The notes under the pieces: generated by a model
What the model saw: the letters and a program-made list of their open reading frames with translations, nothing else
Database searches by the model: none
Told to the model about the DNA's origin: nothing
Source: a phage
Direction: 5' to 3' (one strand)
Assembly: GCA_018865545.1 (NCBI GenBank)
Contig: GCA_018865545.1_3633.1
DNA: 64,000 nt
Made by a program: the position numbers and the translations under genes
Shown: in pieces, positions 30,772-56,675 of the stretch
Layout of the letters: each line of letters opens with the position of its first letter
Position numbering within the stretch: position 1 is the first letter of the stretch

Positions 30772-31601
30772 CTTATTGTCCCCTCAGTTCGCTACACTGA
30801 GGCGGTGTGCTAAAACACCCGCCACATGTTTCCATGTGGAACAGACTATATCTTCCTCTGATTTTACAGAGGCCAACCATTTCGGAGCGGCTTCGCCCCT
30901 ACTCTCCTACACTCATCGGAGATAGTCGTTGAGCACATAACTTAAAGATTTTTTAATAAACGTCGCCAAGCATTTTTATGTTTTATCCTGTGGATAGTTG
31001 ATCTTGTTACACCAAACTCATTCATTAAAGATGTTGTATCCTCAAAACGCCTGTGGTAAATCCTAATAACTTGATCTTCTGTTAATTTGCAATTAGGATT
31101 TCTTTTTCCATCTACGGAGTTTAGACCTTTTGAGAAAGCATGTTTTTGGTTCTGCGACCTAGTAACATACTCCAGATTATCTTTGTGGTTGTTGGCCTTA
31201 TTACCATCTTTATGGTTAACTTCCATTTTTGGATGTGGCGGTTCACCAATGAATGTTAATGCGACTATCCTGTGTACAAGATACAATACACACTTTCCGT
31301 CTACCCTAAAGTAAACTCTTTTATATCCATTGTGTATTGTTTGCTCAGTTAGTTTCTTCCATGTACCTCTTTTTGTTGAAAAGATTGCACCATCTTCTCG
31401 ACAAAAGTACCCGTTATGTCCAGGCACGGGTCTAATCTCTAAGTTACTTCGCTGCGGATTGTCCATTGTTACATCTCCAAACTTTTTACTATACCTGAGA
31501 TAGTTATTCTCAGCCATTATTATGTTACCATAATAATTTAGTATTTGGTAGCTTTAGGAGTTCCCCGCAATTAGATTGGTTTTACAACAGCTAGTATGTC
31601 A
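30772..31601 (-). mobile_element. Group I intron in tape measure gene, carrying an HNH endonuclease ORF
   Basis: On minus strand: exon 1 ends ...CAGU (31602), intron ends in G (30772); P AAUUGCGGGGA (revcomp of 31562-31575), Q AAUCCGCAGCGAAG (revcomp of 31447-31460), R GCUCAACGACUAUCUCC (30915-30930), S AAGAUAUAGUCUG (30838-30852); splice gives ...IMAEELKQQL-AEGIPGSLDVF... Confidence 0.6.
30942..31517 (-). CDS. HNH homing endonuclease (HNH_3/NUMOD-type), intron-encoded
   Basis: 191 aa; LVHRIVALTFIGEPPHPKMEVNHKDGNKANNHKDNLEYV core and C-terminal HTH-like GVTRSTIHRI; annotated N-terminus overlaps intron Q element so the true start may be internal. Confidence 0.75.
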   Translation of the reverse strand: MAENNYLRYSKKFGDVTMDNPQRSNLEIRPVPGHNGYFCREDGAIFSTKRGTWKKLTEQTIHNGYKRVYFRVDGKCVLYLVHRIVALTFIGEPPHPKMEVNHKDGNKANNHKDNLEYVTRSQNQKHAFSKGLNSVDGKRNPNCKLTEDQVIRIYHRRFEDTTSLMNEFGVTRSTIHRIKHKNAWRRLLKNL

Positions 31602-32901
31602 ACTGTTGTTTTAATTCTTCAGCCATGATCTGACCTTTACCCATCATTTGTTGGATAGCGGTAATACCACGCTGGAATTTTACAGGATCAACCTGAAGTG
31701 CAGTAGCATATTCTGAGAAACCTTTGAACAGTTCGTCATTTTGCGCCTTGCTCAAAACACCTTTGGCAGATATGGACATTTGGGTATAACCTTGGGCGGC
31801 GGTTTTTAAATCCAAACCCAATCTGTAAGATTGCTCCCGAACAAACTGTATTCTTTTCGCTGCTTCTTCTGAGTCATCAGAAACCATTAACATGGTAGCT
31901 TCCATGCCTTGAAAGAATTGTCCTGTTTTCACAACACTTGCGGCAGCATTAAAAGCTCCGTATGCAGCAGAAACACTAATTAATGTGCTACGAAGGTTTT
32001 TCAATCCTTGATCAAGAGATAGTGTATTTGCCTTAGCTTTGCGGAGTCCTGTTTCCATTGCTGCCAATTCAGCACGGAAATTAGAAGCTCTCATAGTCTG
32101 GCTTTGCATAAATCTCTTTTCCAGATCATCATAACCTTTAATTTTAGACCTGAAATCATCACCATACTTAGCACGAAGTCTTACAGCAGCATTAGCAATT
32201 GTTGATTGTTTTGCAGCCTTTATCCTTTCTGCTCTTAACGCTTCTCTTTCTTTCTTCTTATTAGCATCTTTTTCTGCCTTAATCTCATCCGCTGTTTTTT
32301 CTTTCGGAATAGATTTATGATAGCGTTCCATAGCAGAGTTCTGGGCAGCCACAAGACTTGGATCGTGACGACTATTAGGATCCCCAACAATACCAGAGGC
32401 AGACCCTGAAGACTTTCTTGCTGCAAGTTCTTGCTGCAATCTTGCTTGACGGGCAGCAGATATTTCTGGATTTGTTCCATATCCAGAACCTGTTTTTTCC
32501 ATCTGCTTCAACTTTGATTTTAATGCATTATATTCTTTTTGTTCTTCAGGTGTTCTTCTGTTTGTTAGTCTGGCTACTGCTTGCTTTCTTCTCGCGCTCT
32601 CAACTTTGGCTATTTGTTCACGAGCACGAGCTTCCTTTTTTGCCATTGCAATAGCATGTGCCGTAGATTTTGCTTGCTCTGCACGTTCAGTTTGGTGTAA
32701 TCTTTTAGCTACAAGACGAGCCTCTTGCGCAGAACGTTTATAAATTGCTGCCGGATTACTTTTATTAGAAGTGAAAGCTCTGTTAGTCTTTTCCCATTCC
32801 TTCTTCAGGGATTTTATAGCTTTCATTGCACGACCGTAACTGGTGCGATCTACAGACCACTCGACAGCATTTACGGTTTTAGTTACTATGATATTCGCCA
32901 T
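31602..32901 (-). CDS. Tail tape measure protein, exon 1
   Basis: Long coiled-coil, Ala/Lys/Glu-rich N-terminal part then ...GITAIQQMMGKGQIMAEELKQQL, typical of tape measure proteins; in-frame stop follows the proposed 5' splice site. Confidence 0.6.
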
Positions 32902-32952
32902 AGATTTTCCTCAATAAAAAAGCCAGGTTCCGAGAAGGAACCTGGCTTGAGA

Positions 32953-33195
32953 TTAACCTCTTCTACCTCGGCGCGACCTATTTGCAGCGGCGGCAGCATT
33001 GGCTGCACTTTGTTCCTCTCTCTCCTGTACGTCTTGGATAAACTCTTCAATATCAAGATATTCGTTCAGTTTAAGCAGGTAGGCCATGTCAGCAGACTCA
33101 AGTGAGGAATAAGACTCACCTTTAAAACTCTTCAGAGCACGACACCACAAATAATCGAACCAAGTCAATGAGCTATTTTTTCTTGCATAATTCAT
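32953..33195 (-). CDS. Hypothetical protein (possible tail assembly chaperone component)
   Basis: 80 aa ORF immediately upstream of tape measure. Confidence 0.35.
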   Translation of the reverse strand: MNYARKNSSLTWFDYLWCRALKSFKGESYSSLESADMAYLLKLNEYLDIEEFIQDVQEREEQSAANAAAAANRSRRGRRG

Positions 33196-33230
33196 AGCTC
33201 TCAGGACAACTTTCGAAATATTAGACGGTG

Positions 33231-33764
33231 TTACTCCGCTTCCTCTGCCTGATCCATCGTGTTCAGTTGATGGGTCTGACCCAGGCGTCCCAGAAGATCC
33301 TGAAGGTTTGCGAAACCGTCTTTCGTGAAAAAACAGCCGTAGTTAACCTCCAGCACTTTTGCCACGAGTTTGATAAGGTCCATCATCTTCCCTTGGAAAA
33401 TATCATCAATGTCTACCTTACCTGCCATACCATCAACAGATACATCGTCCAGAATTAAGGCAAAAAGTTCTTCAATATTATCTTGCTCCATCTGGTCAAA
33501 TAGGTATAATACTGCTGTTGGAATAGCATCAGAAAGATTCTGCCCACCAGACATAAGTGCTCCAGAAATGGATGCCATTGGAACAGCAATATAACGTCCT
33601 ATCTTAGGAATATTTTTAAATGCTTTTGTTGGGGACCAATGTGTAATAACAAAGTTGTGACCCGCTAGGTCAATTTCAGTTGTTTGTCTGATTTTCATGC
33701 ACGCTCCTGCGTCTTTAGAAGTTGAACTATCCTTACGTGTATAAAGGCCACATCCATGTGGCAC
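33231..33764 (-). CDS. Tail assembly chaperone-like protein (putative)
   Basis: 177 aa ORF between tail tube and tape measure, the usual chaperone position. Confidence 0.4.
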   Translation of the reverse strand: MPHGCGLYTRKDSSTSKDAGACMKIRQTTEIDLAGHNFVITHWSPTKAFKNIPKIGRYIAVPMASISGALMSGGQNLSDAIPTAVLYLFDQMEQDNIEELFALILDDVSVDGMAGKVDIDDIFQGKMMDLIKLVAKVLEVNYGCFFTKDGFANLQDLLGRLGQTHQLNTMDQAEEAE

Positions 33765-33773
33765 ACGAAATTA

Positions 33774-34247
33774 TTAAATAATACCGGAAAGTCCAGCGAG
33801 GCCGAAGCCAACAGAGGACAGAGTATCAGGACTCAACCAAGCATCCAGAATACCAATTTCCCAGTCCATCTGACCAACTTCCGTTCCGTAAGTAAGGTCA
33901 GGCTGTTTCTGAATCCATCCAATTGTACTCAAGCCCATACCTTGAGAACCTTCCAGAAGAACAGGGAAGAAAATAAGGCCAGTTACGGATGCTTGTTTTT
34001 GCCAGTTTGCTAAATTACCATTCCATGATGCTGTATTCTGAAGAGAAACCGTCATAACACCAGATTGGTTACGGGACAGTGCAGCAGATAGCTCACCATC
34101 AACCCCCATGTGGGGGATGATATTGTCTTCATTACGGGACACAACAATTTTCGTGTCCGCTGCGAATCCTGTTACTCTTTGAGTCATCAGATACAATTTT
34201 ACTTTTTTAGGGTCATATGCATACGGCGTTAGAATAGCTGTATTCAT
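33774..34247 (-). CDS. Tail tube protein (putative)
   Basis: 157 aa ORF directly downstream of sheath-like gene. Confidence 0.5.
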   Translation of the reverse strand: MNTAILTPYAYDPKKVKLYLMTQRVTGFAADTKIVVSRNEDNIIPHMGVDGELSAALSRNQSGVMTVSLQNTASWNGNLANWQKQASVTGLIFFPVLLEGSQGMGLSTIGWIQKQPDLTYGTEVGQMDWEIGILDAWLSPDTLSSVGFGLAGLSGII

Positions 34248-34250
34248 TTA

Positions 34251-35663
34251 TTACACTCCTGCTGTTACTGTCTGTGCGTTACCAGAATTTGAACCTGTTT
34301 TGTCCAGCATGACAGTCATACGGATCTTGACAAAATGTAGTGGTGTGTTGTATACCAGTTCCACTTTCACGTTGTTAAGTGTACGTGCTGCCAGATCGTT
34401 AGTAGGTATGCTTCCACGCAGAGGGATTGTGATTACAGGGTCGAAGAAGACCTTGTTAACCTCATCATAACCTGTTAAAATAGCTCCGTTAGAAATACCT
34501 ACGTTGATAGGGTTATTCATGATGACAGACTTCAGGTTAGGGAGGTCATCATCACTCATTTTAACAGACAGCCCCATGTTGGATCTGCGGGACATATATC
34601 CGAAAACACTTTCTTCGGTGCGGAACTTAAGCCAGTGACCAAATCTCACAACATCTACATAATTGCCGGAAGCGCATTTGCCTTCATAGAAGGATCCTAC
34701 ACCATTAATCATGCGGTAGAAGTTCAGATTCTTACCCCAGATAGTCATACGTTCCGTTGCACTCAAGGTTGGAGCAACAACCCCGTCCATAGTCTTCAGG
34801 TGGATAGAATCCCCATAGGAAGGATCATTTGAGGCCATCGCCCCGATAATTCCTCCTTCTGGATAGGCACTGTCTGCCAGCGGATCGTACATACCAATAG
34901 AGGTGTCGTATTGCAGAGCTTTCAGTTCATCTGCGATGGAATCACTATCAGCAGTTTTAGATTTTTCATCCGCAGTTGAGTAGACATGCATCTTGTAATT
35001 TGCAGCGGCGAATGCGGCGGCACTTAAGATAGATGTTTTTGTGTGTGACTCAGTGCTGACAAAATACCAGTTCTCATTTGCGGTCATAACCTGCGGAAGA
35101 ACAGAAGAAACTGTCTCATCGGAGGTATTGGTGATGACCATATTTCCGCTGTCTTTACCAACACTAAACTTGCCACTATCTTTTGGGGCAATTGTTACTT
35201 TAGCCTCGCTTGCTGTTGCCGTAAGTACAGTCTTCAGCGTTGTATCCGCATTAATAGCGTCAGCCAGAGATGTAGCAATTGTAGAAGGCTCTGAAGATGC
35301 ATTTACATTGACAAGTATGCTCTTTTGATAAGCCCCTGTCACAAAGTTTAGAGCTACAGGTGTTTCTGGGTCTGTGTTTGTCTGGTCTGTAAAATCCACA
35401 ATCGTATTGGTGAAGCCTTGGCGACCAATCATCAGATATTGTGGACGGAATGTTCCAGAAAATGCCTTAGATGCATAATTATATGCAGGTGTTCCAACAG
35501 CAAATCCATCATCAACTAATTGACTAAGTTCGGTATAAGCACGAACTCTTTCTGGGAAGATATTATGGATCGCAAGGAACAGTGGGGTTTCAAACCCTTT
35601 TGTGTCGATTGGTTGAGTACCAAGTGTGACTGTTACATCAACCACCTTGTCATTATAAGCCAT
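34251..35663 (-). CDS. Tail sheath protein (putative)
   Basis: 470 aa ORF, size and sheath-tube-chaperone-tape measure order typical of contractile tails. Confidence 0.55.
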   Translation of the reverse strand: MAYNDKVVDVTVTLGTQPIDTKGFETPLFLAIHNIFPERVRAYTELSQLVDDGFAVGTPAYNYASKAFSGTFRPQYLMIGRQGFTNTIVDFTDQTNTDPETPVALNFVTGAYQKSILVNVNASSEPSTIATSLADAINADTTLKTVLTATASEAKVTIAPKDSGKFSVGKDSGNMVITNTSDETVSSVLPQVMTANENWYFVSTESHTKTSILSAAAFAAANYKMHVYSTADEKSKTADSDSIADELKALQYDTSIGMYDPLADSAYPEGGIIGAMASNDPSYGDSIHLKTMDGVVAPTLSATERMTIWGKNLNFYRMINGVGSFYEGKCASGNYVDVVRFGHWLKFRTEESVFGYMSRRSNMGLSVKMSDDDLPNLKSVIMNNPINVGISNGAILTGYDEVNKVFFDPVITIPLRGSIPTNDLAARTLNNVKVELVYNTPLHFVKIRMTVMLDKTGSNSGNAQTVTAGV

Positions 35664-35789
35664 CGATTTCCTCTTTTATTTCTGTACGTACAGTTATTGA
35701 CCAGCACTTATTTGTGCTGTGTTGTGGGTTATTTCTCCACATCGTGATCACCAATAAGCCAGTGCTTATCAATAACCAAAATATTTCTT

Positions 35790-36320
35790 TTAATCCTCTT
35801 TCGGAAAATGATATGAAAGTTGCGCATTGAGGGTTTCCAAATCTTCGAAAACTCCAGTGTCTGTTTCTGCAAAGCAAACATTAAAAGTTATCAGCACTAC
35901 AGCCCGAGTTTCATATTTTTGGACATTCAAAGGAACTCTCAACCGAGATATTGTTGAAGAGGAGGAATATGCAAAAGGTGAATTAGTTGGGAAATACTTA
36001 TCGTATATAAAAGGTAAGTTCATAGCTTGTAAAATACGACTTAGGGCATTTGGTGCTTTACCACGATAAGCAGTCAATGTATATACAATTTCATAGTTAT
36101 GAACTGTCATCGCTCGACCATCATCAGTAAATCCATCGTCTGATTGCCAGTCAAGCTGATCTACAGCAGTAAGATCCACTAGAATAAACTCACCATCAAC
36201 TTTAGGTATTTCATCTTCCCCTGCCAGCACGACTTTCCTACCAGTAACTTCTTTACAAAAAGAACCTATTGTTTTCGTCAAAGCATCGAAGATTTCATCT
36301 GTACTGATAAAATCAGTCAT
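35790..36320 (-). CDS. Neck / tail completion protein (putative)
   Basis: 176 aa ORF between head and sheath genes. Confidence 0.4.
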   Translation of the reverse strand: MTDFISTDEIFDALTKTIGSFCKEVTGRKVVLAGEDEIPKVDGEFILVDLTAVDQLDWQSDDGFTDDGRAMTVHNYEIVYTLTAYRGKAPNALSRILQAMNLPFIYDKYFPTNSPFAYSSSSTISRLRVPLNVQKYETRAVVLITFNVCFAETDTGVFEDLETLNAQLSYHFPKED

Positions 36321-36754
36321 TAAATACCTCCGTTTGTCCCTTCTGGTATTGCCACCACATAAGCTCTGAACCTAGAGACACCTGTGGTCTGATACAAATC
36401 AGATTTAATAACTGTGAACCACTCCATCTCACCACGAGAGTTCATTAATAGGATCTGATCAGCCATGTTATCAGACCCTTCAACTGGGCCTTTCAACATC
36501 ACAGATGAATACACAGTAAAGGAATCATACTGCCTACCACCTTCAGGAACTAATTGGGACGTATAATCCCTAGCTGCTTTACCACTAATAGGTTGAACGA
36601 CACATTCAGGTACATCAAATTCAACATACTCAATATCCAACCCACCATTTTCAAATGGATTATCTAAGTCTGTCTTTTTGAACTGTCTGTGTCTACCTTT
36701 CATGGTGACTCTGGGTATCAATTTGTTCTTGCCTATGAGTTTGTATCCCGCCAT
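36320..36754 (-). CDS. Neck / head-tail connector protein (putative)
   Basis: 144 aa ORF, start-stop overlap with neighbour. Confidence 0.4.
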   Translation of the reverse strand: MAGYKLIGKNKLIPRVTMKGRHRQFKKTDLDNPFENGGLDIEYVEFDVPECVVQPISGKAARDYTSQLVPEGGRQYDSFTVYSSVMLKGPVEGSDNMADQILLMNSRGEMEWFTVIKSDLYQTTGVSRFRAYVVAIPEGTNGGI

Positions 36755-36757
36755 AAT

Positions 36758-37234
36758 TTACGCCCCTGAACCTCTTCTGTTCGAAATTTTATAAGTTGTG
36801 GAATCTCTTAAATCCCCATAATGATACATAGCTGCGCTAAAACCTTTGACATCTGCCCATGCATCTGATACAGTATTATGAGGGAAAAGACCAGAGTCTA
36901 TTACAAACTTAATTTTTTCAGCACCTGCTTTACCAATTTTTTTCAGCATTGGGGTTGGATTATTACTTCCAGATGCTAACGTGCCGAATAACTCCTTCTG
37001 TAATTTCTCCAAATCCTTTTGAAAGGACACAGCCGCGCTAGTTATGAATGTACGGGCTGGAAGATTATTCCAGCCTTGTTCATGGATAGCTGCCAGAGTT
37101 GCAGTATTTAGTCCTGAATAGTGTGGGTCATCATAATAACCATAGGAGACTTGTTTTTTATCAAGTTGCTGTACAGAGTTATAAAAATTCTCCAAAGCAC
37201 TTAAATCTTGATGAGATTTAAATTTTGTTCTCAT
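36758..37234 (-). CDS. Head-tail connector protein (putative)
   Basis: 158 aa ORF in neck cluster. Confidence 0.4.
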   Translation of the reverse strand: MRTKFKSHQDLSALENFYNSVQQLDKKQVSYGYYDDPHYSGLNTATLAAIHEQGWNNLPARTFITSAAVSFQKDLEKLQKELFGTLASGSNNPTPMLKKIGKAGAEKIKFVIDSGLFPHNTVSDAWADVKGFSAAMYHYGDLRDSTTYKISNRRGSGA

Positions 37235-37299
37235 AAGAACTCCCGTTAAGGTATTTTACCACATTATCCAAGCAAAATCAATAATTAGGAATACGATTG

Positions 37300-37818
37300 T
37301 CAATAATACCTGTGTTTTGGGTATCTCCGAGGAATACCGGGAACTCCTGTTTGAGGAACTATACCGGAAACATCAAACGGGCTTCTTGAGTTAGGATTAC
37401 TCTTAACACGCCAAAACTCATCCTGTCGCACACCGCCCACAATAACCAAACCAGAGACACCATTCAGGCAGCTATTGACGTAATCAGGGTTTTGCAGTAG
37501 CCAGTCCAGAAAATCTTTCCAGTTCTGATAGGAAGATCCACCTTTTACCTGTATCGTCTCATCACCTATCTTTTCCAATCTTTCTGTGATGGATGCCTCG
37601 CCAGAATTTATCTCTTGAAGAATTAACCATCTTAATACAGCCACCATTGTGTTATAGACCACTTTCCACATGTCGCAAGGCGTGGATGATGGGTTAGGCC
37701 AGTTTGCTCTTTTTTTCTCTATCTCAAGGAATGCCATGATAACTTCATCAGGTAGTGCCTCTGGGGATATTGACCCAAGCAGGAGCCTGATGTAATCAAC
37801 AATTTCTTGGTCTGTCAT
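37300..37818 (-). CDS. Head-tail connector / head completion protein (putative)
   Basis: 172 aa ORF in neck cluster. Confidence 0.4.
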   Translation of the reverse strand: MTDQEIVDYIRLLLGSISPEALPDEVIMAFLEIEKKRANWPNPSSTPCDMWKVVYNTMVAVLRWLILQEINSGEASITERLEKIGDETIQVKGGSSYQNWKDFLDWLLQNPDYVNSCLNGVSGLVIVGGVRQDEFWRVKSNPNSRSPFDVSGIVPQTGVPGIPRRYPKHRYY

Positions 37819-37890
37819 CTAACTCTCCATTTTATGTTACTTGTCAGTAACTATATTATCACAAAATACAATTTTTGTCATTAAAAACGC

Positions 37891-37918
37891 TTGACACGAA
37901 AAATTCCGTAGGTAAGAT
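37891..37918 (+). promoter_or_regulatory. Sigma70-like promoter candidate (TTGACA-N16-TAAGAT)
   Basis: ttgaca 37891-37896, 16 nt spacer, taagat 37913-37918, upstream of plus-strand ORF 37946. Confidence 0.45.
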
Positions 37919-37945
37919 AAACACAACAATTGCTATGGAGGATTT

Positions 37946-38630: not shown

Positions 38631-38641
38631 ATTTTCTCCTT

Positions 38642-42709: not shown

Positions 42710-42733
42710 ATTAGAGGTAGCATTTAAGCTATC

Positions 42734-43747
42734 TTATGCGAAAGTACCAGTAGAACGCACAACCAGTTCAGGACGGGTGTTAACCGTCAAGAAGGAAGTT
42801 TCAGATTCAACTTTCTCTTCACGCAGATATGCAGAAGATTTGTACCACAGATACAGTTCTTCAGCTACAGTGTTTGCTTCACGAACATCATCTGCCGGAG
42901 CATAGTGGATCTGGAACATATCATCAATACCTTGCGGCAGGATGTATGCTTCACCATCTGGGATATATCCAGAGATGTCTTCAATGTAGGTTACGTTCTT
43001 ATGAACAAACATACGGTTGTTGGCATTCTCAGAACCCATACCCAGACGACGACGCAGCGGCTCTTGGGTAGAAGAATAATACTGGTATGCATTCATGATC
43101 AGCGGATGGGCGATCAGAGCAGAGAACCATTTACGAGAAGCCAGAACAATGATATTGTAGTTATTGCCGTTATCACCTGCATTGTCGATGATGTATGCAC
43201 GAGCGTCTTTCTCAATCAGATCAGACGGGTCAACAGCGACATCTGTGAAGTCGATATTGGCAGTATGCTGGGTAACTCCCCACTCAGTAAAGTAGTTGTA
43301 CTGTGCGGTCGGATCTTGTGGAGACCATGATTTACCCATGATTGCCTGAACCATTGCTTTTTCTTTCAGTTGTTCATGAGAAACGCGAATACGCTTAACT
43401 ACGCGAGCAACTACGTCTTCAACAGTTCTCGGAGCGTCCGTAGTGAAATATTTACGGAAGTTCTGAACATCTGCCGCAGTGATCTGACGATCCAGAGGGA
43501 AGAACGGAATGTTGAAGTTCTTGATTTGAGCTTTTTCACTACCCACATAGTTACGTTCTCCACCACGACGACGTGCAGGAATATCCGCAACAATTTCGTC
43601 AACACGCTCAACACGAGCAATTGTGGTTTCACCATGGTAAGCGGTGAACAGATCCATGTTGGTAATCAGGCGATACTGACGTGGAACAAGTTCCAGTGCT
43701 GCGCCAAGGTTTACGATTTGAAAGTCGTTAGTCTGTACTGCTGCCAT
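42734..43747 (-). CDS. Major capsid protein (putative, HK97-fold type)
   Basis: 337 aa; position after scaffold/protease; visibly higher GC and biased codon use; strong terminator downstream. Confidence 0.6.
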   Translation of the reverse strand: MAAVQTNDFQIVNLGAALELVPRQYRLITNMDLFTAYHGETTIARVERVDEIVADIPARRRGGERNYVGSEKAQIKNFNIPFFPLDRQITAADVQNFRKYFTTDAPRTVEDVVARVVKRIRVSHEQLKEKAMVQAIMGKSWSPQDPTAQYNYFTEWGVTQHTANIDFTDVAVDPSDLIEKDARAYIIDNAGDNGNNYNIIVLASRKWFSALIAHPLIMNAYQYYSSTQEPLRRRLGMGSENANNRMFVHKNVTYIEDISGYIPDGEAYILPQGIDDMFQIHYAPADDVREANTVAEELYLWYKSSAYLREEKVESETSFLTVNTRPELVVRSTGTFA

Positions 43748-43770
43748 TTATAAATTCTCCTTGATGCAAA

Positions 43771-44193
43771 TTAGCTGATAGCCGTTACTTTAATATCTTC
43801 AGAACCATCGTAATATTTATCGGTGATTTTCAGACCTCTTGCCTCAAGAGCTTTAATAGCAGTCTCGTCAATTCCAGTGGAACCGTCGGAGAACACAATC
43901 TTGGACTTATTCAGAGTAACGCCACGAACAGCAACAACAAAATTATATTTGGTTCCTACTTTGTACGGGGTAACTGGCTCGTAAGCAGGTACAAGATCAT
44001 GGTCAACAAGAACACCATAAGCATCCGCACCACTTCCAGAAGCGACCAGAGTACCGTCTTCTTTAACAATCATACCTGCTTTCATACCTGCTGCGTACTG
44101 AATCTCCATTTCCTTGAAGCTATAGCCTTGGTCAGAAGAATCAACTTTACCCAGTACAATGTCAGAGTAGAAACCTTGAATTGGATTAGCCAT
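43771..44193 (-). CDS. Head decoration / auxiliary capsid protein (putative)
   Basis: 140 aa ORF between scaffold and major capsid genes. Confidence 0.35.
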   Translation of the reverse strand: MANPIQGFYSDIVLGKVDSSDQGYSFKEMEIQYAAGMKAGMIVKEDGTLVASGSGADAYGVLVDHDLVPAYEPVTPYKVGTKYNFVVAVRGVTLNKSKIVFSDGSTGIDETAIKALEARGLKITDKYYDGSEDIKVTAIS

Positions 44194-44211
44194 TTATTTA
44201 ATCTCCTCGAA

Positions 44212-45213
44212 TTACGCGTTCATTGCAGCCGCTTCGCGTGCACGGGCGCGAGCTTTTTCTACGTTGGCTTTCAGAATATCTTCAGCAGACTTATTAATGT
44301 CGTCTGTAGCAGCTTCAGCACCGGAACCATGTTCAGCGGTAGCAAATTCTTTTTTCACAGTCTTAACTTCTTCTTCAAGCTCCTGAATACGAGCCTGTGC
44401 TTTTTCCAGAATAGCCACCACAGGAGCATTAGCTTTCTCGATAATAAAGTTAGCCAGTGCTTCATGATCAGAGTCAGCAGCGAAAGTGAAAGTTTTTGCT
44501 TTATTCAGAGCTTCTTTCTTTTCCACTTCAACGGCAGCTTTGATGATTTCATCAGCTTTAGCAGCTTTGGCTTCAGCTTCTTCTAATTTTTTAACCAGAT
44601 CTAGATATTCCTGAGATTTGGTCACATCAACATTATTAGACACTGAGGTCTCCTCTTTTTTCTTGGATTTATCAACTACAGGTTTTGAACCTGCTTCTTT
44701 GACGACCCCAGTCACCTGGAGATCTTTATCATCACCCTCTACGAAAGTGACTCCTAATTCTGCAACACCTTTTTCAAACAATTGTTGTAATTTTAGCAAC
44801 TCATATTGTTTAGCGAGATCTAATTCTTTACCTTCGTGAGCAGCTTTAGCAATTGTTATTGCTTGCACGCGTTCTTCAAGAAATTCTTGATGTTGTGCAT
44901 TCCACGCCACAATAAATTCATCATCAGGGTTTTGCGCCGCATCGTATTCAAGTTCAGTTTCAAAACCAAGAAGTTTTGCCAGCAGTTCTGCATCATCATG
45001 CCACATGTAGAAGAATCTACGCAGAAATTCTTCAAAGCTCATTGTAACAGTTACTTGCTGGAGGGCTTTGATAACGTCTTTAGTAAGCTGCTCAGGTTTA
45101 AGATCAGACTTCATAAGAAGTGATACTGGTCTTAAATTAGCAGAATACCCTTGAAGCTCATGACACAGTGCAATACCCTTCTCCTTAATGGCTTTGGCCT
45201 TTACAATTGTCAT
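44212..45213 (-). CDS. Scaffolding protein (putative)
   Basis: 333 aa, strongly Ala/Glu/Lys-rich coiled-coil (EEAEAKAAKADEIIKAAVEVEKKEALNKAK), upstream of capsid gene. Confidence 0.55.
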   Translation of the reverse strand: MTIVKAKAIKEKGIALCHELQGYSANLRPVSLLMKSDLKPEQLTKDVIKALQQVTVTMSFEEFLRRFFYMWHDDAELLAKLLGFETELEYDAAQNPDDEFIVAWNAQHQEFLEERVQAITIAKAAHEGKELDLAKQYELLKLQQLFEKGVAELGVTFVEGDDKDLQVTGVVKEAGSKPVVDKSKKKEETSVSNNVDVTKSQEYLDLVKKLEEAEAKAAKADEIIKAAVEVEKKEALNKAKTFTFAADSDHEALANFIIEKANAPVVAILEKAQARIQELEEEVKTVKKEFATAEHGSGAEAATDDINKSAEDILKANVEKARARAREAAAMNA

Positions 45214-45899
45214 TCGTCCTCTTCCTCTGTTTCATCTAGATAACCCAGACATTCGATACCGAAATCAACATCTGTTATTTCTCCTGTTGCTGTGTCCACA
45301 CGCCCAGAGCACTGGATGCTTAAACCACCAACAACATTTGCTTTTTTCAAATTCCACAAATCAGGATCATTATACTTAACCTTGGCTACCCATGTTCCTG
45401 CTTTAATTATCTGTTCCGTCCCAATGACCACAACATCCAGTTCTTCTTGAATCCAAGTTTTTTCAATAGTGAATGCATCAGTCTCGCTAAGATGGAATAA
45501 ATTTTCTTTCACCAAACCAGCAGCGAGTGCCTTATCGTAAGATTCTTTTGCCTTTACTATCGTTTCAGGAGACATCCACTCTCCATGGGCATCCTTGGTG
45601 TTTGGCTCATAAATAACCTCATAAGAGATCATTTGTTCCGCATCTTTTTGGATATTAACTACAGATGTTTCTTTATTAAGACTCTTTTTAAGATTTAGAG
45701 ATAAAACTCTCTCAGAAGCCTTTTCTACAGAAATTTCTGGAGAATGGCCTGAAGCAATCAGGCCATTAGCGATATTCAGTATCTTGCTCTTTTGAACAAG
45801 AGACAGATCAGATACTGATGAAGGAAGGTCTTTAATGCTTTTAAATTTCATTATTTCCCCATTAACAGTTATTTTAACATCGTTCTTTTTCTTTTGCAA
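45210..45899 (-). CDS. Prohead protease (putative)
   Basis: 229 aa ORF between portal and scaffold; acidic C-terminal tail ETEEEDE. Confidence 0.4.
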   Translation of the reverse strand: MQKKKNDVKITVNGEIMKFKSIKDLPSSVSDLSLVQKSKILNIANGLIASGHSPEISVEKASERVLSLNLKKSLNKETSVVNIQKDAEQMISYEVIYEPNTKDAHGEWMSPETIVKAKESYDKALAAGLVKENLFHLSETDAFTIEKTWIQEELDVVVIGTEQIIKAGTWVAKVKYNDPDLWNLKKANVVGGLSIQCSGRVDTATGEITDVDFGIECLGYLDETEEEDE

Positions 45900-45920
45900 G
45901 TTATTTCAGAAAGTTGAGTG

Positions 45921-47462
45921 TTAATTCTCTAAATTAGAAACAGAATTATCCCTCACTGTTGATATTTTTGATGTTCCGTTACCTGTTGACCCTGGAGTCA
46001 TCCCATCACCAGAACGACTTACATCCTGACCAAGAATTTGCAACAACTCTTCAAGGTCCATATCTTCTGGGATTTCTTCGTCAAAACCACCAACCTCAAG
46101 AATTTTATTAATAACTGTAGGTGTCTTAGGCAAGTACCCAACAGCACCGATACGCTGAACAAATTTAGAGAAGCCTTCCATATCAACTTCTTGAATAAGC
46201 CCAGGTTTTAATCTTGGCATATCTTCGTCAGACAATCTTATATCGTTCAAAGCAAGAAGTTGAGGTATTAAGTTCTTATTGAACGCCTCAACAATAATAT
46301 CAATATCTCTCTGGACAAAATGACCATGAATAGTTTGTTTTGATTCTGAAAGATTATAAGATCCTTGCCCATCGTTACCTAAGTTAATAAACCCCGCACC
46401 AAAACGATCAAGAATAGCCTTCTTACGAGAGTTAACAAGCTCTTGTGTGCTGTATTGTTTACCTGCGCCATCGATCCCTTTAAGGGACATTTCATATTGT
46501 TTACCACCTTGATTATTGAGGTCAGATGGTAAGATAAAATAGGCTTGTTCCCCAGCGTGTGCGTTTGCAGCATCTGCCATTAGTCCTTGCACCATAGCAG
46601 CTTCTGGTGATGTTGGGTCTATTGCTGCTTTATTAAGGATCTGGGAGGGTATCTTAAGTTCTATGATACCACCAAGATCTTTAGATGCTCCGATAGTCTC
46701 CAAATTTTCTATAAGGATCTTCTCTCGGAATGCCCTATAACAACCAACCAAAGGTGATACCCCAGCAGGGTTGGATTCCGTACCCCCCAAACTCATTATC
46801 ATCAACTTATTAACTGGAATAAAAACATCATCACCATTAGTCAATTTACGGATAATGTTTAAAGTATCCCCCAGCATTCCGTTTTGTAAATTGGAGAAAG
46901 CCAAACTGCTTTGGTTAATGCCCTTCAGCGTCTTACCATCGGCATCAAATACCCAAGGCTTTGATCTAGAAAGACTGCACTGTGGCCTGAATGCAATTTT
47001 ATCAATCGTAATATACCCAGCATACCTTGAAGTCTCTGGCTCAGTACGATAAACTTTTTCAAATATCGAAAACCCATACTCATTGAACGTTGCTGCGCTT
47101 CGGGCTATGTCACGTAGAGTTTGTTGGTTAGCAAGATTCTTCAGTGCATACTCCACAAACTCAGCAGCTTTCTTAGATTTTCTGCTATCTCTGTTATACA
47201 AGATTTTAAAATCATTGAAGGCTTTGGTCACAAAGACATACTTTGTATCAAGGGCTGTGGAAACTGTATGGTCTTGCTTCATAGCTTCAACAGTGGCGAT
47301 GAAATTAGGCCATCTCAACTCCTTAACTTTCATAATCTCTGATTCAGCCCTGAGTTGAGAAAGAGCACCGGAGCCTAATTCTCCGGTACGAAGACGACTA
47401 ACAGCAAGTCTCTCATTACCTGCTTTAGAAATCTCTTCTTGTTGTGCAAATCTTGTTGACAC
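45921..47462 (-). CDS. Portal protein (putative)
   Basis: 513 aa ORF immediately downstream of terminase large subunit, size typical of portals. Confidence 0.6.
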   Translation of the reverse strand: MSTRFAQQEEISKAGNERLAVSRLRTGELGSGALSQLRAESEIMKVKELRWPNFIATVEAMKQDHTVSTALDTKYVFVTKAFNDFKILYNRDSRKSKKAAEFVEYALKNLANQQTLRDIARSAATFNEYGFSIFEKVYRTEPETSRYAGYITIDKIAFRPQCSLSRSKPWVFDADGKTLKGINQSSLAFSNLQNGMLGDTLNIIRKLTNGDDVFIPVNKLMIMSLGGTESNPAGVSPLVGCYRAFREKILIENLETIGASKDLGGIIELKIPSQILNKAAIDPTSPEAAMVQGLMADAANAHAGEQAYFILPSDLNNQGGKQYEMSLKGIDGAGKQYSTQELVNSRKKAILDRFGAGFINLGNDGQGSYNLSESKQTIHGHFVQRDIDIIVEAFNKNLIPQLLALNDIRLSDEDMPRLKPGLIQEVDMEGFSKFVQRIGAVGYLPKTPTVINKILEVGGFDEEIPEDMDLEELLQILGQDVSRSGDGMTPGSTGNGTSKISTVRDNSVSNLEN

Positions 47463-47477
47463 GAATTATCCCCTCTG

Positions 47478-48263
47478 TTATATTCTTTTATACAAGGTAG
47501 GAGCTACAATTTTTGGAATAACAACAGGTTTGACTATTTCTTCTTTTTCAAGATAATTTATCCCAGAAGAAATGGCGTCGACCCAATCGTCTTTTCTTGT
47601 CGTAGTACTCCTTTCCCCATTGAACTTTTCAAGCTCTGTCATAAGGGCTTCATAAGTTTTAGGATCAAAACTATCACGAACTATTCTCACCATACCTGCT
47701 TGAGCAAGTTTTGCAAACGGTGTGAATCGTGTTAATTTTGATTTATTGCTTGGTGTAGGATCTTTTTCTACTGTAAACCCTTCCGCTATTAATTCACGGG
47801 AGCTTGTTAAAAATTCACTTATTCCTGCTTGTCCTGGGTCAACACTGAAAATTATAGTGACATCATCACCATCAAAATAAGCCTGTTTCTTAATGATAAC
47901 ATCACGTTCCCCAGCTTTTTTACAGAATCTTCCCTGCGTTTGAGTCGAATATCTACCATCATCAAAAAATTCAGGACAATAATCACCAGACAAGTAGTAA
48001 AAGCCATCATTGTCTTTACTTACCTTAACAGATGCTGTAAAGTCAGGATATCTGTTTCCAGATGTTCTTTCTGTACCTGCTTTATCATACGGGCGAACAG
48101 ATACAACACCGAGAGGTAAGCAGGGAACCTCTTTTAAATAAGATCTCTGGAAATAGTTTGCCCCTTCAGGTCTTGCGTTCCAGTTCCCATGCAACAACTG
48201 GGCTTTTTCTACCTCTGGAAGACCTTCAAGGAATGCTAGATAATCTGGGTTATTCTCCAGCAT
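47478..48263 (-). CDS. terL: Terminase large subunit, last exon (nuclease domain); true 5' edge a few codons upstream
   Basis: VTIIFSVDPGQAG and RKDDWVDAISSGINYL resemble RNase H-like nuclease motifs of large terminases; in-frame stop about 27 nt upstream of first Met marks the limit of the open frame. Confidence 0.65.
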   Translation of the reverse strand: MLENNPDYLAFLEGLPEVEKAQLLHGNWNARPEGANYFQRSYLKEVPCLPLGVVSVRPYDKAGTERTSGNRYPDFTASVKVSKDNDGFYYLSGDYCPEFFDDGRYSTQTQGRFCKKAGERDVIIKKQAYFDGDDVTIIFSVDPGQAGISEFLTSSRELIAEGFTVEKDPTPSNKSKLTRFTPFAKLAQAGMVRIVRDSFDPKTYEALMTELEKFNGERSTTTRKDDWVDAISSGINYLEKEEIVKPVVIPKIVAPTLYKRI

Positions 48264-49250
48264 GGGAGGATTATCGAATCCTTGTATTCAAGGTTGGACG
48301 CAACGCCAACCCCCGCACCACTACGTGCTGCTGCATGTCACCATGCAGAGTAGACTATATCACCACCCACACATAATGGGTGCTTCGCTTTTCGAACGCC
48401 ATTAGCTTGCGATCTACTCCCTTGCGGGATAGTCGTTGAACTACATTACCATTCATAGTTGTTTGAGATATAGATGTAAGTTTTTCTATCTTTTATTCTT
48501 CTAACAAGATTAAAACTAACACCCCATTTTTTAGATATCTTATTAATGCTTAGGATACCGTCTCTCAGATCTTCACATATCCCTATAACTTTGGATTCAC
48601 TAATTCTGTTGGAAGAAGGAACCATCCTGAAATTAAACTCTTTAGAAATGTCTGGGTAGACTCTCCCAGCTTTGATACTACTAACCACAGTCTGCCCAAT
48701 ACCAAACATCTCACTGATATCCTTTACTCTAGCACCCTGCTCAAGTAATCTGCATATCTCAAGGGCAGTGTTATCATCAAGAGGCCTGTAACTGTTTACA
48801 TAAGACTTCTTAAGCCCTATTTCATGTGCGTGATGTGTGTTTTCCTTTGCAGTTGTCCACTCAAGATTCCACGCTGCGTTATTAAGTTTGTTTCCATCTA
48901 AATGGTTCACTTGAGTTTTTGTATCAGGGCTATCATTCTCGACAAAAGCAAAAGCAATAACCCTATGGACAAGAACTTGAAACTTTTTACCATCCTCACA
49001 CAACGTTAACATTGCATAGCCAGTTTTCTTATGGACATTAGGATGTAAAAATTTGTGGGAATACAAACTATAAATTCTTCCATCATACGTCGCACAATAA
49101 TGGGAATACCCTAAAAATCCTAAATTTTTCATCTCAAACATTCTCCCTACTACAGTTTCGGAAAAGTAATTATAGCTGCTGATTGCCCTTATACAAAGGG
49201 TTTCCCAGCAATTAACGAAGTTATTCGACATGCATTACTGCATGAAGCCA
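48264..49250 (-). mobile_element. Group I intron-like insertion in terminase gene with HNH ORF (5' boundary unresolved)
   Basis: R GUUCAACGACUAUCCC (revcomp of 48426-48441) and S GAUAUAGUCUACUC (48335-48350) on minus strand; HNH ORF upstream of R; 3' segment repeated at 49606-49650. Confidence 0.5.
48446..49231 (-). CDS. HNH homing endonuclease (HNH_3/NUMOD-type), intron-encoded
   Basis: 261 aa; NLGFLGYSHYCATYDGRIYS N-terminus, LVHRVIAFAFVENDSPDTKTQVNHLDGNKLNNAAWNLEW core, HTH-like GIGQTVVSSIK. Confidence 0.75.
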   Translation of the reverse strand: MSNNFVNCWETLCIRAISSYNYFSETVVGRMFEMKNLGFLGYSHYCATYDGRIYSLYSHKFLHPNVHKKTGYAMLTLCEDGKKFQVLVHRVIAFAFVENDSPDTKTQVNHLDGNKLNNAAWNLEWTTAKENTHHAHEIGLKKSYVNSYRPLDDNTALEICRLLEQGARVKDISEMFGIGQTVVSSIKAGRVYPDISKEFNFRMVPSSNRISESKVIGICEDLRDGILSINKISKKWGVSFNLVRRIKDRKTYIYISNNYEW

Positions 49251-49572
49251 CTATTCTTTTAATGGTTGCGGAAATGAAGGAAAATGAAAGTGGTTTAGGC
49301 TTTCTTTTCTCATCCTTGCCATCCCAATACTTTTCAATTAATTCTTGCTCTGATTCACCCCAGATAAACTCCCCGTCACGTCTTATAAACCATCTAATCA
49401 CCCCGTCACGTTCAGGTATAGGATACCCCTCATCGTCTAAATACCAAGAAATCAACTCCTTAATCTTATGATCTGGATCAGGGTTACAAGAGATAACCAT
49501 CCTACTCGGGTATTTAGAGTTTGAACGTAGACGAGATATCAGATAATCTATCTGTGACCATGTGAATTGTGT
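49189..49572 (-). CDS. terL: Terminase large subunit, middle exon (ATPase domain C-terminal part); 3' limit is the ORF stop, real 5' splice site lies somewhere upstream of it
   Basis: Reading frame opens at 49572 after intron terminal G (49573): TQFTWSQIDYLISRLRSNSKYPSRMVISCNPDP, the post-Walker B R-x-R and (S/T)xNP region of large terminases. Confidence 0.5.
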   Translation of the reverse strand, partial: TQFTWSQIDYLISRLRSNSKYPSRMVISCNPDPDHKIKELISWYLDDEGYPIPERDGVIRWFIRRDGEFIWGESEQELIEKYWDGKDEKRKPKPLSFSFISATIKRIVASCSNACRITSLIAGKPFV

Positions 49573-49922
49573 CGTTTTTGTTCAGATAAGATCGCTACTC
49601 TTATCCCGCACCACTACGTGCTGCTGCATGTCACCATGCAGATCAGACTATATCTTGTGTGTTATTACACACCCCCCCTGTTTCGGCGGTTGATAATCAA
49701 CCGGAGGTTTCCCTCACCGCTTGGCCCTAACGCCCGTAAGCGATAGTCGTTGAACGTTCATCCCGTAGGGATGCTTCGCTGCGGATTGTCTAAACATTCA
49801 CACTGTTACTATACTCAACGTCATTACCGTTGACCATAAATATGTTACCATACCTACTTAGTGGTGATATGTATAAAGAGTTACCCGTCAATTAAAGGGG
49901 TTTATAGAGAGCACACTGTTCT
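49573..49922 (-). mobile_element. ORF-less group I intron in terminase gene
   Basis: Minus-strand P AAUUGACGGGUAAC (revcomp of 49880-49893), Q AAUCCGCAGCGAAG (49774-49787), R GUUCAACGACUAUCG (49741-49756), S AAGAUAUAGUCUGAUCUG (49636-49650); preceding exon ends in U, intron ends in G. Confidence 0.5.
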
Positions 49923-49955
49923 ACCCTCATCGAAACCTATAAAGGTATATTGCAA
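49923..49955 (-). CDS. terL: Terminase large subunit mini-exon (Walker B region), inferred
   Basis: Minus-strand frame LQYTFIGFDEG, hydrophobic run plus DE = Walker B-like, in frame with exon starting 49572 to give ...FIGFDEG-TQFTWSQIDYL...; bounded by intron-like sequence on both sides. Confidence 0.4.
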
Positions 49956-50194
49956 CTTATTGTCCCCTCAGTTCGCTACACTGAGGCGGTGTGCTAAAAC
50001 ACCCGCCACATGTTTCCATGTGGAACAGACTATATCTTCCATCCTTGGCGTGCCGTTTGGATCACCAATCGCTTGTGATTCTACTCTCCTACACTCATCG
50101 GAGATAGTCGTTACACCCAGAGTTTATATTTCCATATTCTGTGGCACGGTATTTTCCCATAGGGAGTTCCACCGTTATAGGCACGAAGGGCAAG
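49956..50194 (-). mobile_element. Group I intron-like element (3' core only recognisable) between terminase exon 1 and mini-exon; 5' boundary unresolved
   Basis: R (50095-50110) and S (50025-50040) elements; 85 bp at 49956-50040 nearly identical to the 3' end of the tape-measure intron (30772-30856); no P/Q recognised. Confidence 0.4.
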
Positions 50195-56674: not shown

Positions 56675-56675
56675 A

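What the first reader, a model, noticed from the sequence alone, without database searches (positions are those of the whole stretch)
30772..50194. Near-identical intron core modules reused at distant sites
An 85 bp block (30772-30856) is essentially identical to 49956-50040, and a 33 bp block (30898-30930) to 50081-50113; these are the S/P9 and R regions of the tape-measure intron and of the first terminase intron-like element. Separately, 48307-48350 closely matches 49606-49650 (3' ends of two other terminase introns), and the Q-containing stretch atgcttcgctgcggattgtc recurs at 31447 and 49774. This suggests recent intron duplication or recombination, and one terminase element appears to retain only its 3' half.
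Basis: seen in the sequence. Interest (0 to 1): 0.55.

Follow-up and report, generated by a model that had tools for sequence, protein, structure and literature searches.

The report
Phage self-splicing introns swapping RNA modules
Two self-splicing introns 19 kb apart in an rV5-like E. coli phage (tape-measure and terminase genes) share two 100% identical ribozyme segments, most likely copied between introns by recombination; a real natural example of a known process.

Summary
The repeats are real. Blocks of 85/85 and 32/32 nt occur exactly twice (0 expected by chance), and a 48/50 block also repeats.

They lie in four complete group I introns on the minus strand:
- tape-measure intron, 31601..30772, with an HNH endonuclease gene;
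- terminase intron A, 50200..49956;
- terminase intron B, 49922..49573;
- terminase intron C, 49261..48280, with an HNH gene.

Each boundary is fixed by an intron-less relative, and both spliced genes are in frame.

The identical blocks cover P7 plus P7.1, and P7' through P9.2 to the terminal G. The 42 nt between them and the whole 5' half are unrelated. The same tape-measure intron in other phages carries its own version of these blocks (72-80% identical, with compensatory changes). So selection or whole-intron duplication does not explain the identity. Patchy recombination between co-resident introns does.

A second case has a clear direction. Intron B's P9.1 hairpin equals this genome's intron C (19/19) but matches intron B of rV5-type phages at only 8-9/19.

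No terminase intron is a 3' half only. The recurring "Q" stretch is ordinary family conservation.

This is a new member of a known kind and is moderately interesting.

The parts
31602..32901 (-). Tape-measure gene exon 1
   Evidence: ORF list. Continuous tape-measure CDS in TH18 and Av-05. Spliced CDS is 2421 nt, in frame, 806 aa.
30772..31601 (-). Tape-measure group I intron (830 nt, IA-type with P7.1/P7.2 and P9.1/P9.2)
   Evidence: Absent from TH18, Av-05 and L046-L048. Rfam Intron_gpI 32.3 bits, below the gathering score. The 5' exon ends in U31602, which pairs as U-G in P1 (ACAGUU/AGCUGU). The terminal G is 30772. All helices P1-P9.2 pair. Orthologous introns occupy the same site in L008-L010 and L037-L040.
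30942..31466 (-). Intron-encoded HNH homing endonuclease gene (174 aa). It starts in P4' and its stop codon lies in the 3' strand of P6a.
   Evidence: Pfam HNH_3, E=2.2e-13. The exact protein is called on Logan contigs. Orthologues are 81% and 75% identical.
30899..30930 (-). Shared block 1 (J6/7, P7 5' strand, P7.1 hairpin), 32/32 identical to 50081-50112
   Evidence: All 8 substitutions relative to orthologous tape-measure introns fall on the window branch.
30857..30898 (-). Unshared middle of the tape-measure intron (P7.2, P3' strand, P8), of the tape-measure-lineage type
   Evidence: Does not align with intron A. The P3' strand AAAUGGUUGGC is invariant in the orthologues and pairs with this intron's own P3.
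30772..30856 (-). Shared block 2 (J8/7, P7 3' strand, P9, P9.1, P9.2, 3' tail and terminal G), 85/85 identical to 49956-50040
   Evidence: Covariation supports P9 and P9.2.
29651..30771 (-). Tape-measure gene exon 2
50201..51277 (-). Terminase large subunit exon 1 (contains a putative intein at 50489-51187)
49956..50200 (-). Terminase intron A (245 nt, no ORF). It carries copies of block 1 (50081-50112) and block 2 (49956-50040).
   Evidence: Empty site in Av-05, CATCAGGGT|TTGCAGTAT; also absent from rV5 and RudolfGeigy. Rfam 33.9 bits. P1 AGGGU/GCCCU and all helices pair. 98.8-100% identical copies in TH18, L034, L051-L053 and L056.
49923..49955 (-). Terminase exon 2, only 33 nt (LQYTFIGFDEG, Walker B motif)
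   Evidence: Bounded by the empty sites of introns A and B. The spliced frame is intact.
49573..49922 (-). Terminase intron B (350 nt, no ORF, T4 td-like)
   Evidence: Rfam 66.3 bits, above the gathering score. Empty site in TH18, GATGAGGGA|ACACAA. Orthologues at the same site in rV5 and RudolfGeigy. P1 GAGGGU/GCUCUC.
49605..49654 (-). Module shared by introns B and C (P7', P9, P9.1), 48/50 identical to 48312-48361. Its P9-P9.1 part (49605-49641) is 37/37 identical to intron C at 48312-48348.
   Evidence: P9.1 is 19/19 identical to this genome's intron C but 8-9/19 to the orthologous intron B of rV5 and RudolfGeigy.
49262..49572 (-). Terminase exon 3
   Evidence: Pfam Terminase_6N.
48280..49261 (-). 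Terminase intron C (982 nt) with an HNH gene (48446..49132) in the P6 loop
   Evidence: Exactly absent from metagenomic contig L034. Rfam finds its two halves separately, 21.4 and 31.6 bits. HNH_3 E=2.9e-7. Helices pair. An ORF-less form exists in RudolfGeigy, L052 and L054.
47478..48279 (-). Terminase exon 4 (nuclease domain)
   Evidence: Pfam Terminase_6C. Spliced TerL is 740 aa.
5091..5817 (+). Fifth group I intron, in the DNA polymerase gene, with HNH ORF 5190..5675. The boundaries are provisional. It shares 27/27 (P7.2) and 21/21 nt with terminase intron B.
   Evidence: Rfam 46.8 bits. Shared blocks. The polymerase motif B, RSGGKGVTYG|IMYGAQ, spans the proposed junction. I could not find a convincing P1 for this junction.

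Best explanation
The window comes from an Av-05/TH18-like (rV5-type) E. coli myovirus. Its late genes are interrupted by several self-splicing group I introns. The tape-measure intron belongs to a mobile lineage with an HNH endonuclease that occupies this exact tape-measure site in several phage groups. Terminase intron A is a small ORF-less intron with an unrelated 5' half. The two introns share two perfectly identical patches: P7 plus P7.1, and P7' through P9.2 to the terminal G. The most likely cause is non-reciprocal homologous recombination (gene conversion) between the two non-allelic introns in one replicating genome. A crossover would delete 19 kb of essential structural genes, so only conversion products survive. 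The patch between the two blocks contains P3', which must pair with each intron's own P3. Products that keep the resident version there are the ones expected to still splice. The same process acted on the terminase introns: intron C overwrote the P9 loop and P9.1 hairpin of intron B. Shown: the intron boundaries, the complete ribozyme cores, the mosaic identity pattern, the different versions in orthologues, and covariation in the shared helices. Inferred: the gene-conversion mechanism, the direction intron A to tape-measure intron (about 60-65%), actual self-splicing, and homing by the HNH enzymes.
For: Repeats are exact and not chance. Empty sites fix every boundary: the tape-measure intron, intron A, intron B, intron C. 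Spliced TerL is 740 aa and the spliced tape-measure protein 806 aa, both in frame. All P1-P9 helices pair. P9 and P9.2 show 12 of 19 pairs with changes on both sides and 99.3% paired cells, against 0-4 such pairs in the slid controls. Orthologous tape-measure introns (L008-10, L037-40) carry their own version of the blocks, 72-80% identical, while the window's copy equals its own intron A. In block 1 the substitutions are 8:0:0 on the window branch versus 74:47:86 in the rest of the intron. Both window copies share a derived U in the P9.1 loop (UUUUAG). L053's intron A and all outgroups have UCUUAG. Intron A is 245/245 identical in L034 and in L056, a 133.9-kb contig. None of the samples that yielded these terminase loci is among those recovered for the tape-measure endonuclease cluster. 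At least 10 of 12 contigs with the same neighbouring protein have an uninterrupted tape-measure gene. Second case: intron B's P9.1 is 19/19 identical to its own intron C, 8-9/19 to the orthologous intron B, while intron C matches its orthologues at 16-17/19. From memory, not retrieved from the library: Bryk & Belfort (Nature 1990) observed recombination between homologous core elements of different T4 introns.
Against: Block 2 shows no excess of window-branch changes (8-9 against 3-10 on the other branches). So its direction is not shown by divergence, and it could be native to the window-type tape-measure intron. I could not read the tape-measure region of the genomes that have an identical intron A, so their intron-free status rests on indirect cluster and sample information. 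Phages recombine freely, so the exchange may have happened in another genome before these introns arrived here. No splicing or recombination experiment is available. The 8 changes in block 1 are about 4 compensatory events and are not independent.
Confidence: 0.8

Rival explanations
1. Same mechanism, opposite direction or another place. The blocks are native to the window-type tape-measure intron, were copied into terminase intron A in an ancestor, and intron A then spread by homing or recombination into phages without the tape-measure intron.
For: Block 2 of the window's tape-measure intron is no more diverged from its orthologues (78-80%) than the rest of the intron (75-82%), and it shows no branch excess. 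Contig L042 keeps the lineage-typical A at the first P7.1 position.
Against: Block 1 has all 8 changes on the window branch. Intron A with identical blocks occurs in several genomes for which no tape-measure endonuclease was recovered. Intron A shows its own population variation (loop variants, two P9.2 types), and the tape-measure intron matches only the variant of its own genome.
Confidence: 0.2
2. Whole-intron duplication or transposition (for example by reverse splicing) from one gene into the other, followed by divergence.
For: The 3' exon starts are similar (UAGC and UUGC) and the 3' ends are identical.
Against: The 5' halves and the 42-nt middle do not align while the flanking blocks are 100% identical. 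Uniform divergence cannot produce that pattern. Orthologous tape-measure introns exist at the same site in distant phages.
Confidence: 0.03
3. The identity is maintained by strong purifying selection on ribozyme sequence, or arose by convergence, without recombination.
For: Parts of the blocks (AACGACUA, GAAGAUAUAGUC, the P9.1 stem) are conserved across the family.
Against: Orthologues differ at 20-28% of block positions, with free compensatory change in P7.1, P9 and P9.2. Loop positions are identical too.
Confidence: 0.02
4. Assembly or consensus artefact that copied sequence from one locus to the other.
For: These modules do disturb assemblies: Logan contigs break at them, and the Av-05 record is rearranged at the P9 hairpins.
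Against: Independent samples, including a 99.8% identical genome, break at exactly the block edges, as expected for a true repeat. The path returns to the correct locus after each short block. The intron remains structurally coherent.
Confidence: 0.02

Closest known systems
Phage T4 td / nrdB / nrdD (sunY) introns and the recombination between their homologous core elements (Bryk & Belfort, Nature 1990; cited from memory, not found in the searchable library)
   Same: Group IA-type phage introns in different genes of one genome share homologous core segments. Recombination between them produces chimeric introns. Intron B here is td-like at its 3' end (P9 CUGCAUGGUGACAUGCAG and the 3' tail ...CUUAUCUGAAC..., as I recall the T4 td sequence). 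Searches list Tequatrovirus records among the matches.
   Different: In T4 the shuffling was selected in the laboratory and went with deletion of the DNA in between. Here it is a natural, non-reciprocal, hairpin-scale patchwork (32, 85 and 37 nt) that leaves the genome intact, and it is seen twice in one genome.
rV5 terminase large-subunit introns (Kropinski et al. 2013, PMC3606486)
   Same: The same gene family, and the same two insertion sites as introns B and C, one of which holds an HNH gene.
   Different: rV5 has no intron A, no intein and no tape-measure intron. Its intron B keeps its own P9.1 hairpin.
Multi-intron terminase and polymerase genes of Bastillevirinae (PMC11878797) and tape-measure introns of Bacillus cereus-group prophages (PMC2504315)
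   Same: Terminase genes split by two or three group I introns, very small internal exons, and introns in tape-measure genes are all documented.
   Different: Different phage groups and different insertion sites. Those papers, as far as I searched them, do not report identical modules shared between introns of one genome.
PhiPA3 RNA-polymerase intron with HNH endonuclease gp210 (PMC11620839)
   Same: It is the closest relative of block 2 in deposited phage genomes outside this phage group (78-82% identical, same P9, P9.1 and P9.2 architecture), and it also encodes an HNH enzyme. It shows what such an intron can do: its endonuclease interferes with a co-infecting intron-less competitor.
   Different: Different host gene, phage family and 5' half. 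No functional data exist for the intron in this window.

Membership tests
Group I self-splicing intron (Rfam RF00028) | Covariance-model score at or above the curated gathering score (50 bits) | tested here: inconclusive
   Intron B scores 66.3 bits and passes. The tape-measure intron scores 32.3, intron A 33.9, intron C 31.6 plus 21.4 (two halves), and the polymerase intron 46.8. These are all below 50, with E-values between 4e-9 and 0.14. ORF and peripheral insertions depress the scores.
Group I self-splicing intron (Rfam RF00028) | Precise insertion: the element is exactly absent from homologous genes and its removal restores the reading frame | tested here: met
   Empty sites exist for all four introns. 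The spliced CDSs are in frame.
Group I self-splicing intron (Rfam RF00028) | The 5' exon ends in U, which pairs with G in P1 formed with an internal guide sequence; the intron ends in G | tested here: met
   P1 is ACAGU/GCUGU, AGGGU/GCCCU, GAGGGU/GCUCUC and CCAU/GUGG in the four introns. Each intron ends in G.
Group I self-splicing intron (Rfam RF00028) | Conserved core helices P3-P9, including the P7 guanosine-binding helix | tested here: met
   All helices are complementary in the four introns. P9 and P9.2 are supported by covariation. P3, P4 and P7.1 show compensatory differences between lineages.
Group I self-splicing intron (Rfam RF00028) | Guanosine-dependent self-splicing of the RNA | not testable with these tools
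   Inferred only. Terminase and tape-measure protein are essential, the introns carry in-frame stops, and TH18 and Av-05, deposited phages of this group, carry some of the same terminase introns.
Subgroup IA (T4 td-like, IA2-type) | Extra hairpins P7.1 and P7.2 between P7 and the 3' strand of P3 | tested here: met
   Hairpins at 30922-30903 and 30899-30884 in the tape-measure intron, and at 50104-50085 and 50079-50061 in intron A. The Rfam alignments show a 40-80 nt insertion at that place.
Intron-encoded HNH homing endonuclease | HNH catalytic motif | tested here: met
   Pfam HNH_3: E=2.2e-13 for the tape-measure intron ORF and 2.9e-7 for the intron C ORF.
Intron-encoded HNH homing endonuclease | Cleaves the intron-less allele and drives homing with co-conversion of flanking exon sequence | tested here: inconclusive
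   Presence or absence varies among near-identical genomes. Against the closest intron-less allele, L048, 4 of the 8 differences in 650 nt lie within -5..+22 of the junction. The larger 13-difference cluster against TH18 and Av-05 is also present in the intron-less alleles L046-L048, so it is an allele class and not proof of co-conversion. Cleavage itself is not testable here.
Intein (in the terminase Walker A loop) | In-frame insertion in a conserved motif, starting with Cys/Ser/Thr and ending with Asn followed by Cys/Ser/Thr | tested here: met
   IGGAAG[C...233 aa...N]SGKSYLL in the window, against the contiguous IGGAAGSGKSFLL in rV5 and RudolfGeigy.
Intein (in the terminase Walker A loop) | Recognisable HINT splicing-domain fold or profile | tested here: inconclusive
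   No Pfam or NCBIfam hit. The only PDB sequence hit is an intein, at E=0.79. The single-sequence AlphaFold model is unusable, pLDDT 37.

The most novel reading that the evidence does not exclude
The hairpin-scale homogenisation seen twice in this genome (intron A with the tape-measure intron; intron C with intron B) is not neutral gene conversion. Instead it is favoured because co-resident introns benefit from sharing peripheral modules. Examples would be a common protein cofactor or maturase that binds P7.1 or P9-P9.2, or coordinated folding or GTP-dependent splicing that times terminase and tape-measure production late in infection.
Probability: 0.06. Interest if true: 0.7.

Novelty: new member of a known kind. 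Interest (0 to 1): 0.42.

Why it matters
There are three reasons.

1. It is a clean natural record of domain exchange between different ribozymes inside one virus. One case has a clear direction, and population samples show that the exchanged pieces are single hairpins or small groups of helices. This bears on how group I introns diversify and adapt to new insertion sites.

2. It has practical consequences for annotation and assembly. Relatives annotate the terminase as three separate genes. The tape-measure intron is absent from the deposited phage genomes I searched. The repeated, partly palindromic modules break k-mer assemblies, and they coincide with a rearrangement in the Av-05 reference record.

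3. One essential gene here carries three introns and a putative intein, including a 33-nt exon that encodes the Walker B motif. Together with its polymorphic relatives, this makes a good system for testing homing, trans-mobilisation of ORF-less introns and exon skipping.

Tried and rejected
- Exact scans of IMG/VR for the window-type block 2 and for the tape-measure-specific middle found nothing. A scan of representative genomes also found nothing.
- A peptide-based search for terminase loci did not retrieve the three IMG/VR contigs that carry the orthologous tape-measure intron. A degenerate pattern scan showed that they have the cassette only once, so concerted evolution could not be tested there.
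- I first read the 13 exon differences against TH18 and Av-05 as a co-conversion tract. I withdrew that reading after the intron-less alleles L046-L048 showed the same flanks. Only a short cluster against L048 remains.
- Segment identities did not reveal which intron donated block 2.
P0006 was not on record. The E. coli genome collection has no copy. So I could not read a second complete genome with the window-type tape-measure intron.
- Intein tests gave nothing usable: Pfam, NCBIfam and the single-sequence structure prediction.
- The Rfam alignment placed P1 of intron B inside exon 2 (ACCUUUAU/AUGAGGGU). The empty site shows that the true P1 is GAGGGU/GCUCUC.
- I could not find a convincing P1 for the polymerase intron, so its boundaries stay provisional.
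- The Bryk & Belfort 1990 paper is not in the searchable library.


Full report
**Observation.** The repeats exist as described, with small coordinate corrections. Window 30772-30856 equals 49956-50040 at 85/85. Window 30899-30930 equals 50081-50112 at 32/32, so this block is 32 nt, not 33. Window 48312-48361 equals 49605-49654 at 48/50. A 17-nt core (31447-31463 = 49774-49790) recurs. Each of the two long blocks occurs exactly twice in the window, with none expected in 100 shuffles.

**Context.** The window is closest to Escherichia phages Av-05 and vB_EcoM_TH18 (Vequintavirinae, rV5-like myoviruses), at 94-98% identity. Genes in the region run on the minus strand. Rfam finds one group I intron above its threshold (49624-49950, 66.3 bits). 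It also finds weaker group I matches exactly at the repeat positions and at 5572-5775.

**Anatomy from empty sites.**
- TH18 and Av-05 have an uninterrupted tape-measure gene. So do at least 10 of 12 contigs that encode the identical downstream protein.
- The tape-measure intron is 31601..30772 (830 nt). Its 5' exon ends in U, which pairs with G in P1. It ends in G, and the spliced protein is 806 aa. It encodes a 174-aa HNH endonuclease.
- Av-05 lacks intron A (CATCAGGGT|TTGCAGTAT), which fixes intron A at 50200..49956.
- TH18 lacks intron B (GATGAGGGA|ACACAA), which fixes intron B at 49922..49573.
- A 98%-identical metagenomic contig, L034, lacks exactly 49261..48280, which fixes intron C.
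- The spliced terminase is 740 aa and in frame. Exon 2 is only 33 nt and encodes the Walker B motif.
- All four introns have complementary P1-P9 helices, with P7.1/P7.2 and P9.1/P9.2 of the IA type.
- No terminase intron is a 3' half. Intron C looks split only because an HNH gene sits in its P6 loop.

**What the shared blocks are.** Block 1 is J6/7, the 5' strand of P7, and P7.1. Block 2 is J8/7, the 3' strand of P7, P9, P9.1, P9.2 and the 3' tail up to the terminal G. The 42 nt between the blocks (P7.2, the 3' strand of P3, P8) and everything upstream do not align between the two introns. Both strands of P7 therefore lie in the shared part, and both strands of P3 lie in the unshared part. That is the arrangement a still-functional chimera needs.

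**Relatives of the tape-measure intron.** IMG/VR and ENA contigs carry an orthologous intron at the same tape-measure site. These are L008-L010 (endonuclease 81% identical) and L037-L040 (75% identical).
- Their blocks are homologous to the window's but only 72-80% identical, with compensatory changes in P7.1, P9 and P9.2.
- An alignment of eight copies of the cassette also includes one in a DnaB-like helicase gene (L029) and the PhiPA3 RNA-polymerase intron. In it, 99.3% of cells are paired and 12 of 19 pairs change on both sides, against 0-4 in the slid controls.
- The blocks are therefore selected RNA structure that is free to vary in sequence. Perfect identity inside one genome is not explained by constraint.

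**Mechanism and direction.** A mosaic of perfect identity next to unalignable sequence points to recombination between the two non-allelic introns. A crossover would delete 19 kb of structural genes, so the viable product is a conversion patch.

Evidence on the direction:
- In block 1, all 8 substitutions relative to the two orthologous lineages fall on the window branch (8:0:0). The rest of the intron gives 74:47:86.
- Both window copies share a derived U in the P9.1 loop. Outgroups and L053's intron A have C there.
- Intron A varies among close relatives (three loop variants and two P9.2 hairpins). The tape-measure intron matches only the variant of its own genome.
- Intron A identical to the window's (245/245) occurs in L034 and in L056, a 133.9-kb contig. 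None of the samples that yielded these terminase loci is among those recovered for the tape-measure endonuclease cluster.
- Against this, block 2 shows no branch excess, and I could not read the tape-measure region of those genomes.

I therefore put the direction intron A to tape-measure intron at about 60-65%.

**A second, directional case.** In rV5 and RudolfGeigy, intron B has its own P9.1 hairpin and intron C has another; within those genomes the two match at 9/19. In the window, intron B's P9.1 equals its own intron C at 19/19 but matches the orthologous intron B at only 8-9/19. Intron C matches its orthologues at 16-17/19. So intron C overwrote the P9 loop and P9.1 of intron B in this lineage. 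This supports the idea that small conversion patches between co-resident introns recur.

**How the tape-measure intron arrived.** It did not arise as a local copy of intron A. It belongs to a lineage tied to this site. My first reading of 13 exon differences against TH18 and Av-05 as a co-conversion tract was too strong, because the intron-less alleles L046-L048 share those flanks. Against the closest intron-less allele, 4 of the 8 differences in 650 nt lie within -5..+22 of the junction. That fits a short co-conversion tract or selection at the target site.

**Reality of the repeat.** Logan contigs from four other samples end inside block 1 at window 30901. One of these samples is a 99.8% identical, independent genome. 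One contig with a single-base difference in block 1 reads through that block and stops 31 nt into block 2. Another contig starts inside block 2. This is the behaviour expected at a true repeat in a k=31 graph.

**Comparison with what is known.**
- Two terminase introns were reported for rV5 (PMC3606486).
- Terminase genes with two or three introns, tiny internal exons and exon skipping are described in Bastillevirinae (PMC11878797).
- Tape-measure introns are known in Bacillus prophages (PMC2504315).
- The PhiPA3 intron, which carries the nearest deposited relative of block 2 outside this phage group, encodes an HNH enzyme that harms a co-infecting competitor (PMC11620839).
- Recombination between core elements of different T4 introns was shown experimentally (Bryk & Belfort 1990). 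I cite this from memory, because it is not in the library.

The finding is therefore a new member of a known kind. It comprises an intron absent from the deposited phage genomes I searched, plus natural and partly directional evidence for module exchange.

**Verdict.** Interest is moderate.

Noticed in passing
window 50489-51187 (minus strand): Putative 233-aa intein that splits the terminase Walker A loop: IGGAAG[C...N]SGKSYLL. rV5 and RudolfGeigy read IGGAAGSGKSFLL without interruption. Av-05 has the same insert. TH18 has the same ends but a middle 88 aa longer, containing a LAGLIDADG-like VAVMADGRV, so the window's copy may have a degraded endonuclease domain. There is no profile hit, and the structure model was unusable.
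   Followed up: partly
window 49923-49955: Terminase exon 2 is only 33 nt (Walker B) and lies between two introns. The window and L034, L051, L052 and L054-L056 have both introns; TH18 has only A and Av-05 only B. The exon can fold on itself (ACCUUUAU/AUGAGGGU), and Rfam mistook that hairpin for P1 of intron B. Exon skipping, as reported for another phage terminase (PMC11878797), would remove Walker B.
   Followed up: partly
window ~5091-5817 (plus strand), DNA polymerase gene 3013-6458: A fifth group I intron (Rfam 46.8 bits) with HNH ORF 5190-5675. It shares an identical 27-nt P7.2 segment and an identical 21-nt P7'-P9 segment with terminase intron B. In the same 1.6-kb stretch, Av-05 has about 843 nt and TH18 about 317 nt of extra insertions. 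The boundaries are provisional.
   Followed up: partly
Av-05 RefSeq NC_025830 (L006, L007), matching window 48340-49955: The Av-05 record starts inside intron B's P9 module. The segment between the P9 hairpins of introns B and C is inverted, and the HNH gene is missing. The breakpoints are at window 48348 and 49626. This is probably a misassembly at these palindromic shared modules.
   Followed up: partly
L054:3439-3530 and L055:2727-2818 (terminase intron A of close relatives): Intron A has an alternative P9.2 hairpin here (CAUGUGG-UGUAGCGA-CCACAUG in L054; the loop is UAUAGCGA in L055). Its stem strands are those of P9 in swapped order. This is another hairpin-level replacement within the same intron.
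   Followed up: no
L009, L010 and L037 tape-measure introns (P7.2 region): These orthologues carry a long P7.2 (GGGCCAAGCGG..GGAAACC..AGUCUUU.AGACUGCCG) that resembles the P7.2 of the window's polymerase intron and intron B. L008 and the window have a short P7.2. This is further module polymorphism within one intron lineage.
   Followed up: no
window 6430-7068 (plus strand): An ORF immediately after the DNA polymerase gene, with only weak helix-turn-helix-like family hits. By its N-terminal sequence (GYPDYQVSNYGNV...) it may be a free-standing homing endonuclease. If so, it is a candidate for mobilising ORF-less introns in trans.
   Followed up: no
window 53600-59520 (minus strand): A cluster of 14 tRNA genes above the Rfam threshold, plus three weaker tRNA-like hits, just upstream of the lysis and terminase region.
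   Followed up: no
TH18 record ON075799 (L001, L002): The terminase is annotated as three separate 'terminase large subunit' CDSs plus an HNH gene, and the tape-measure protein as 'hypothetical protein'. Neither the introns nor the intein are annotated.
   Followed up: no
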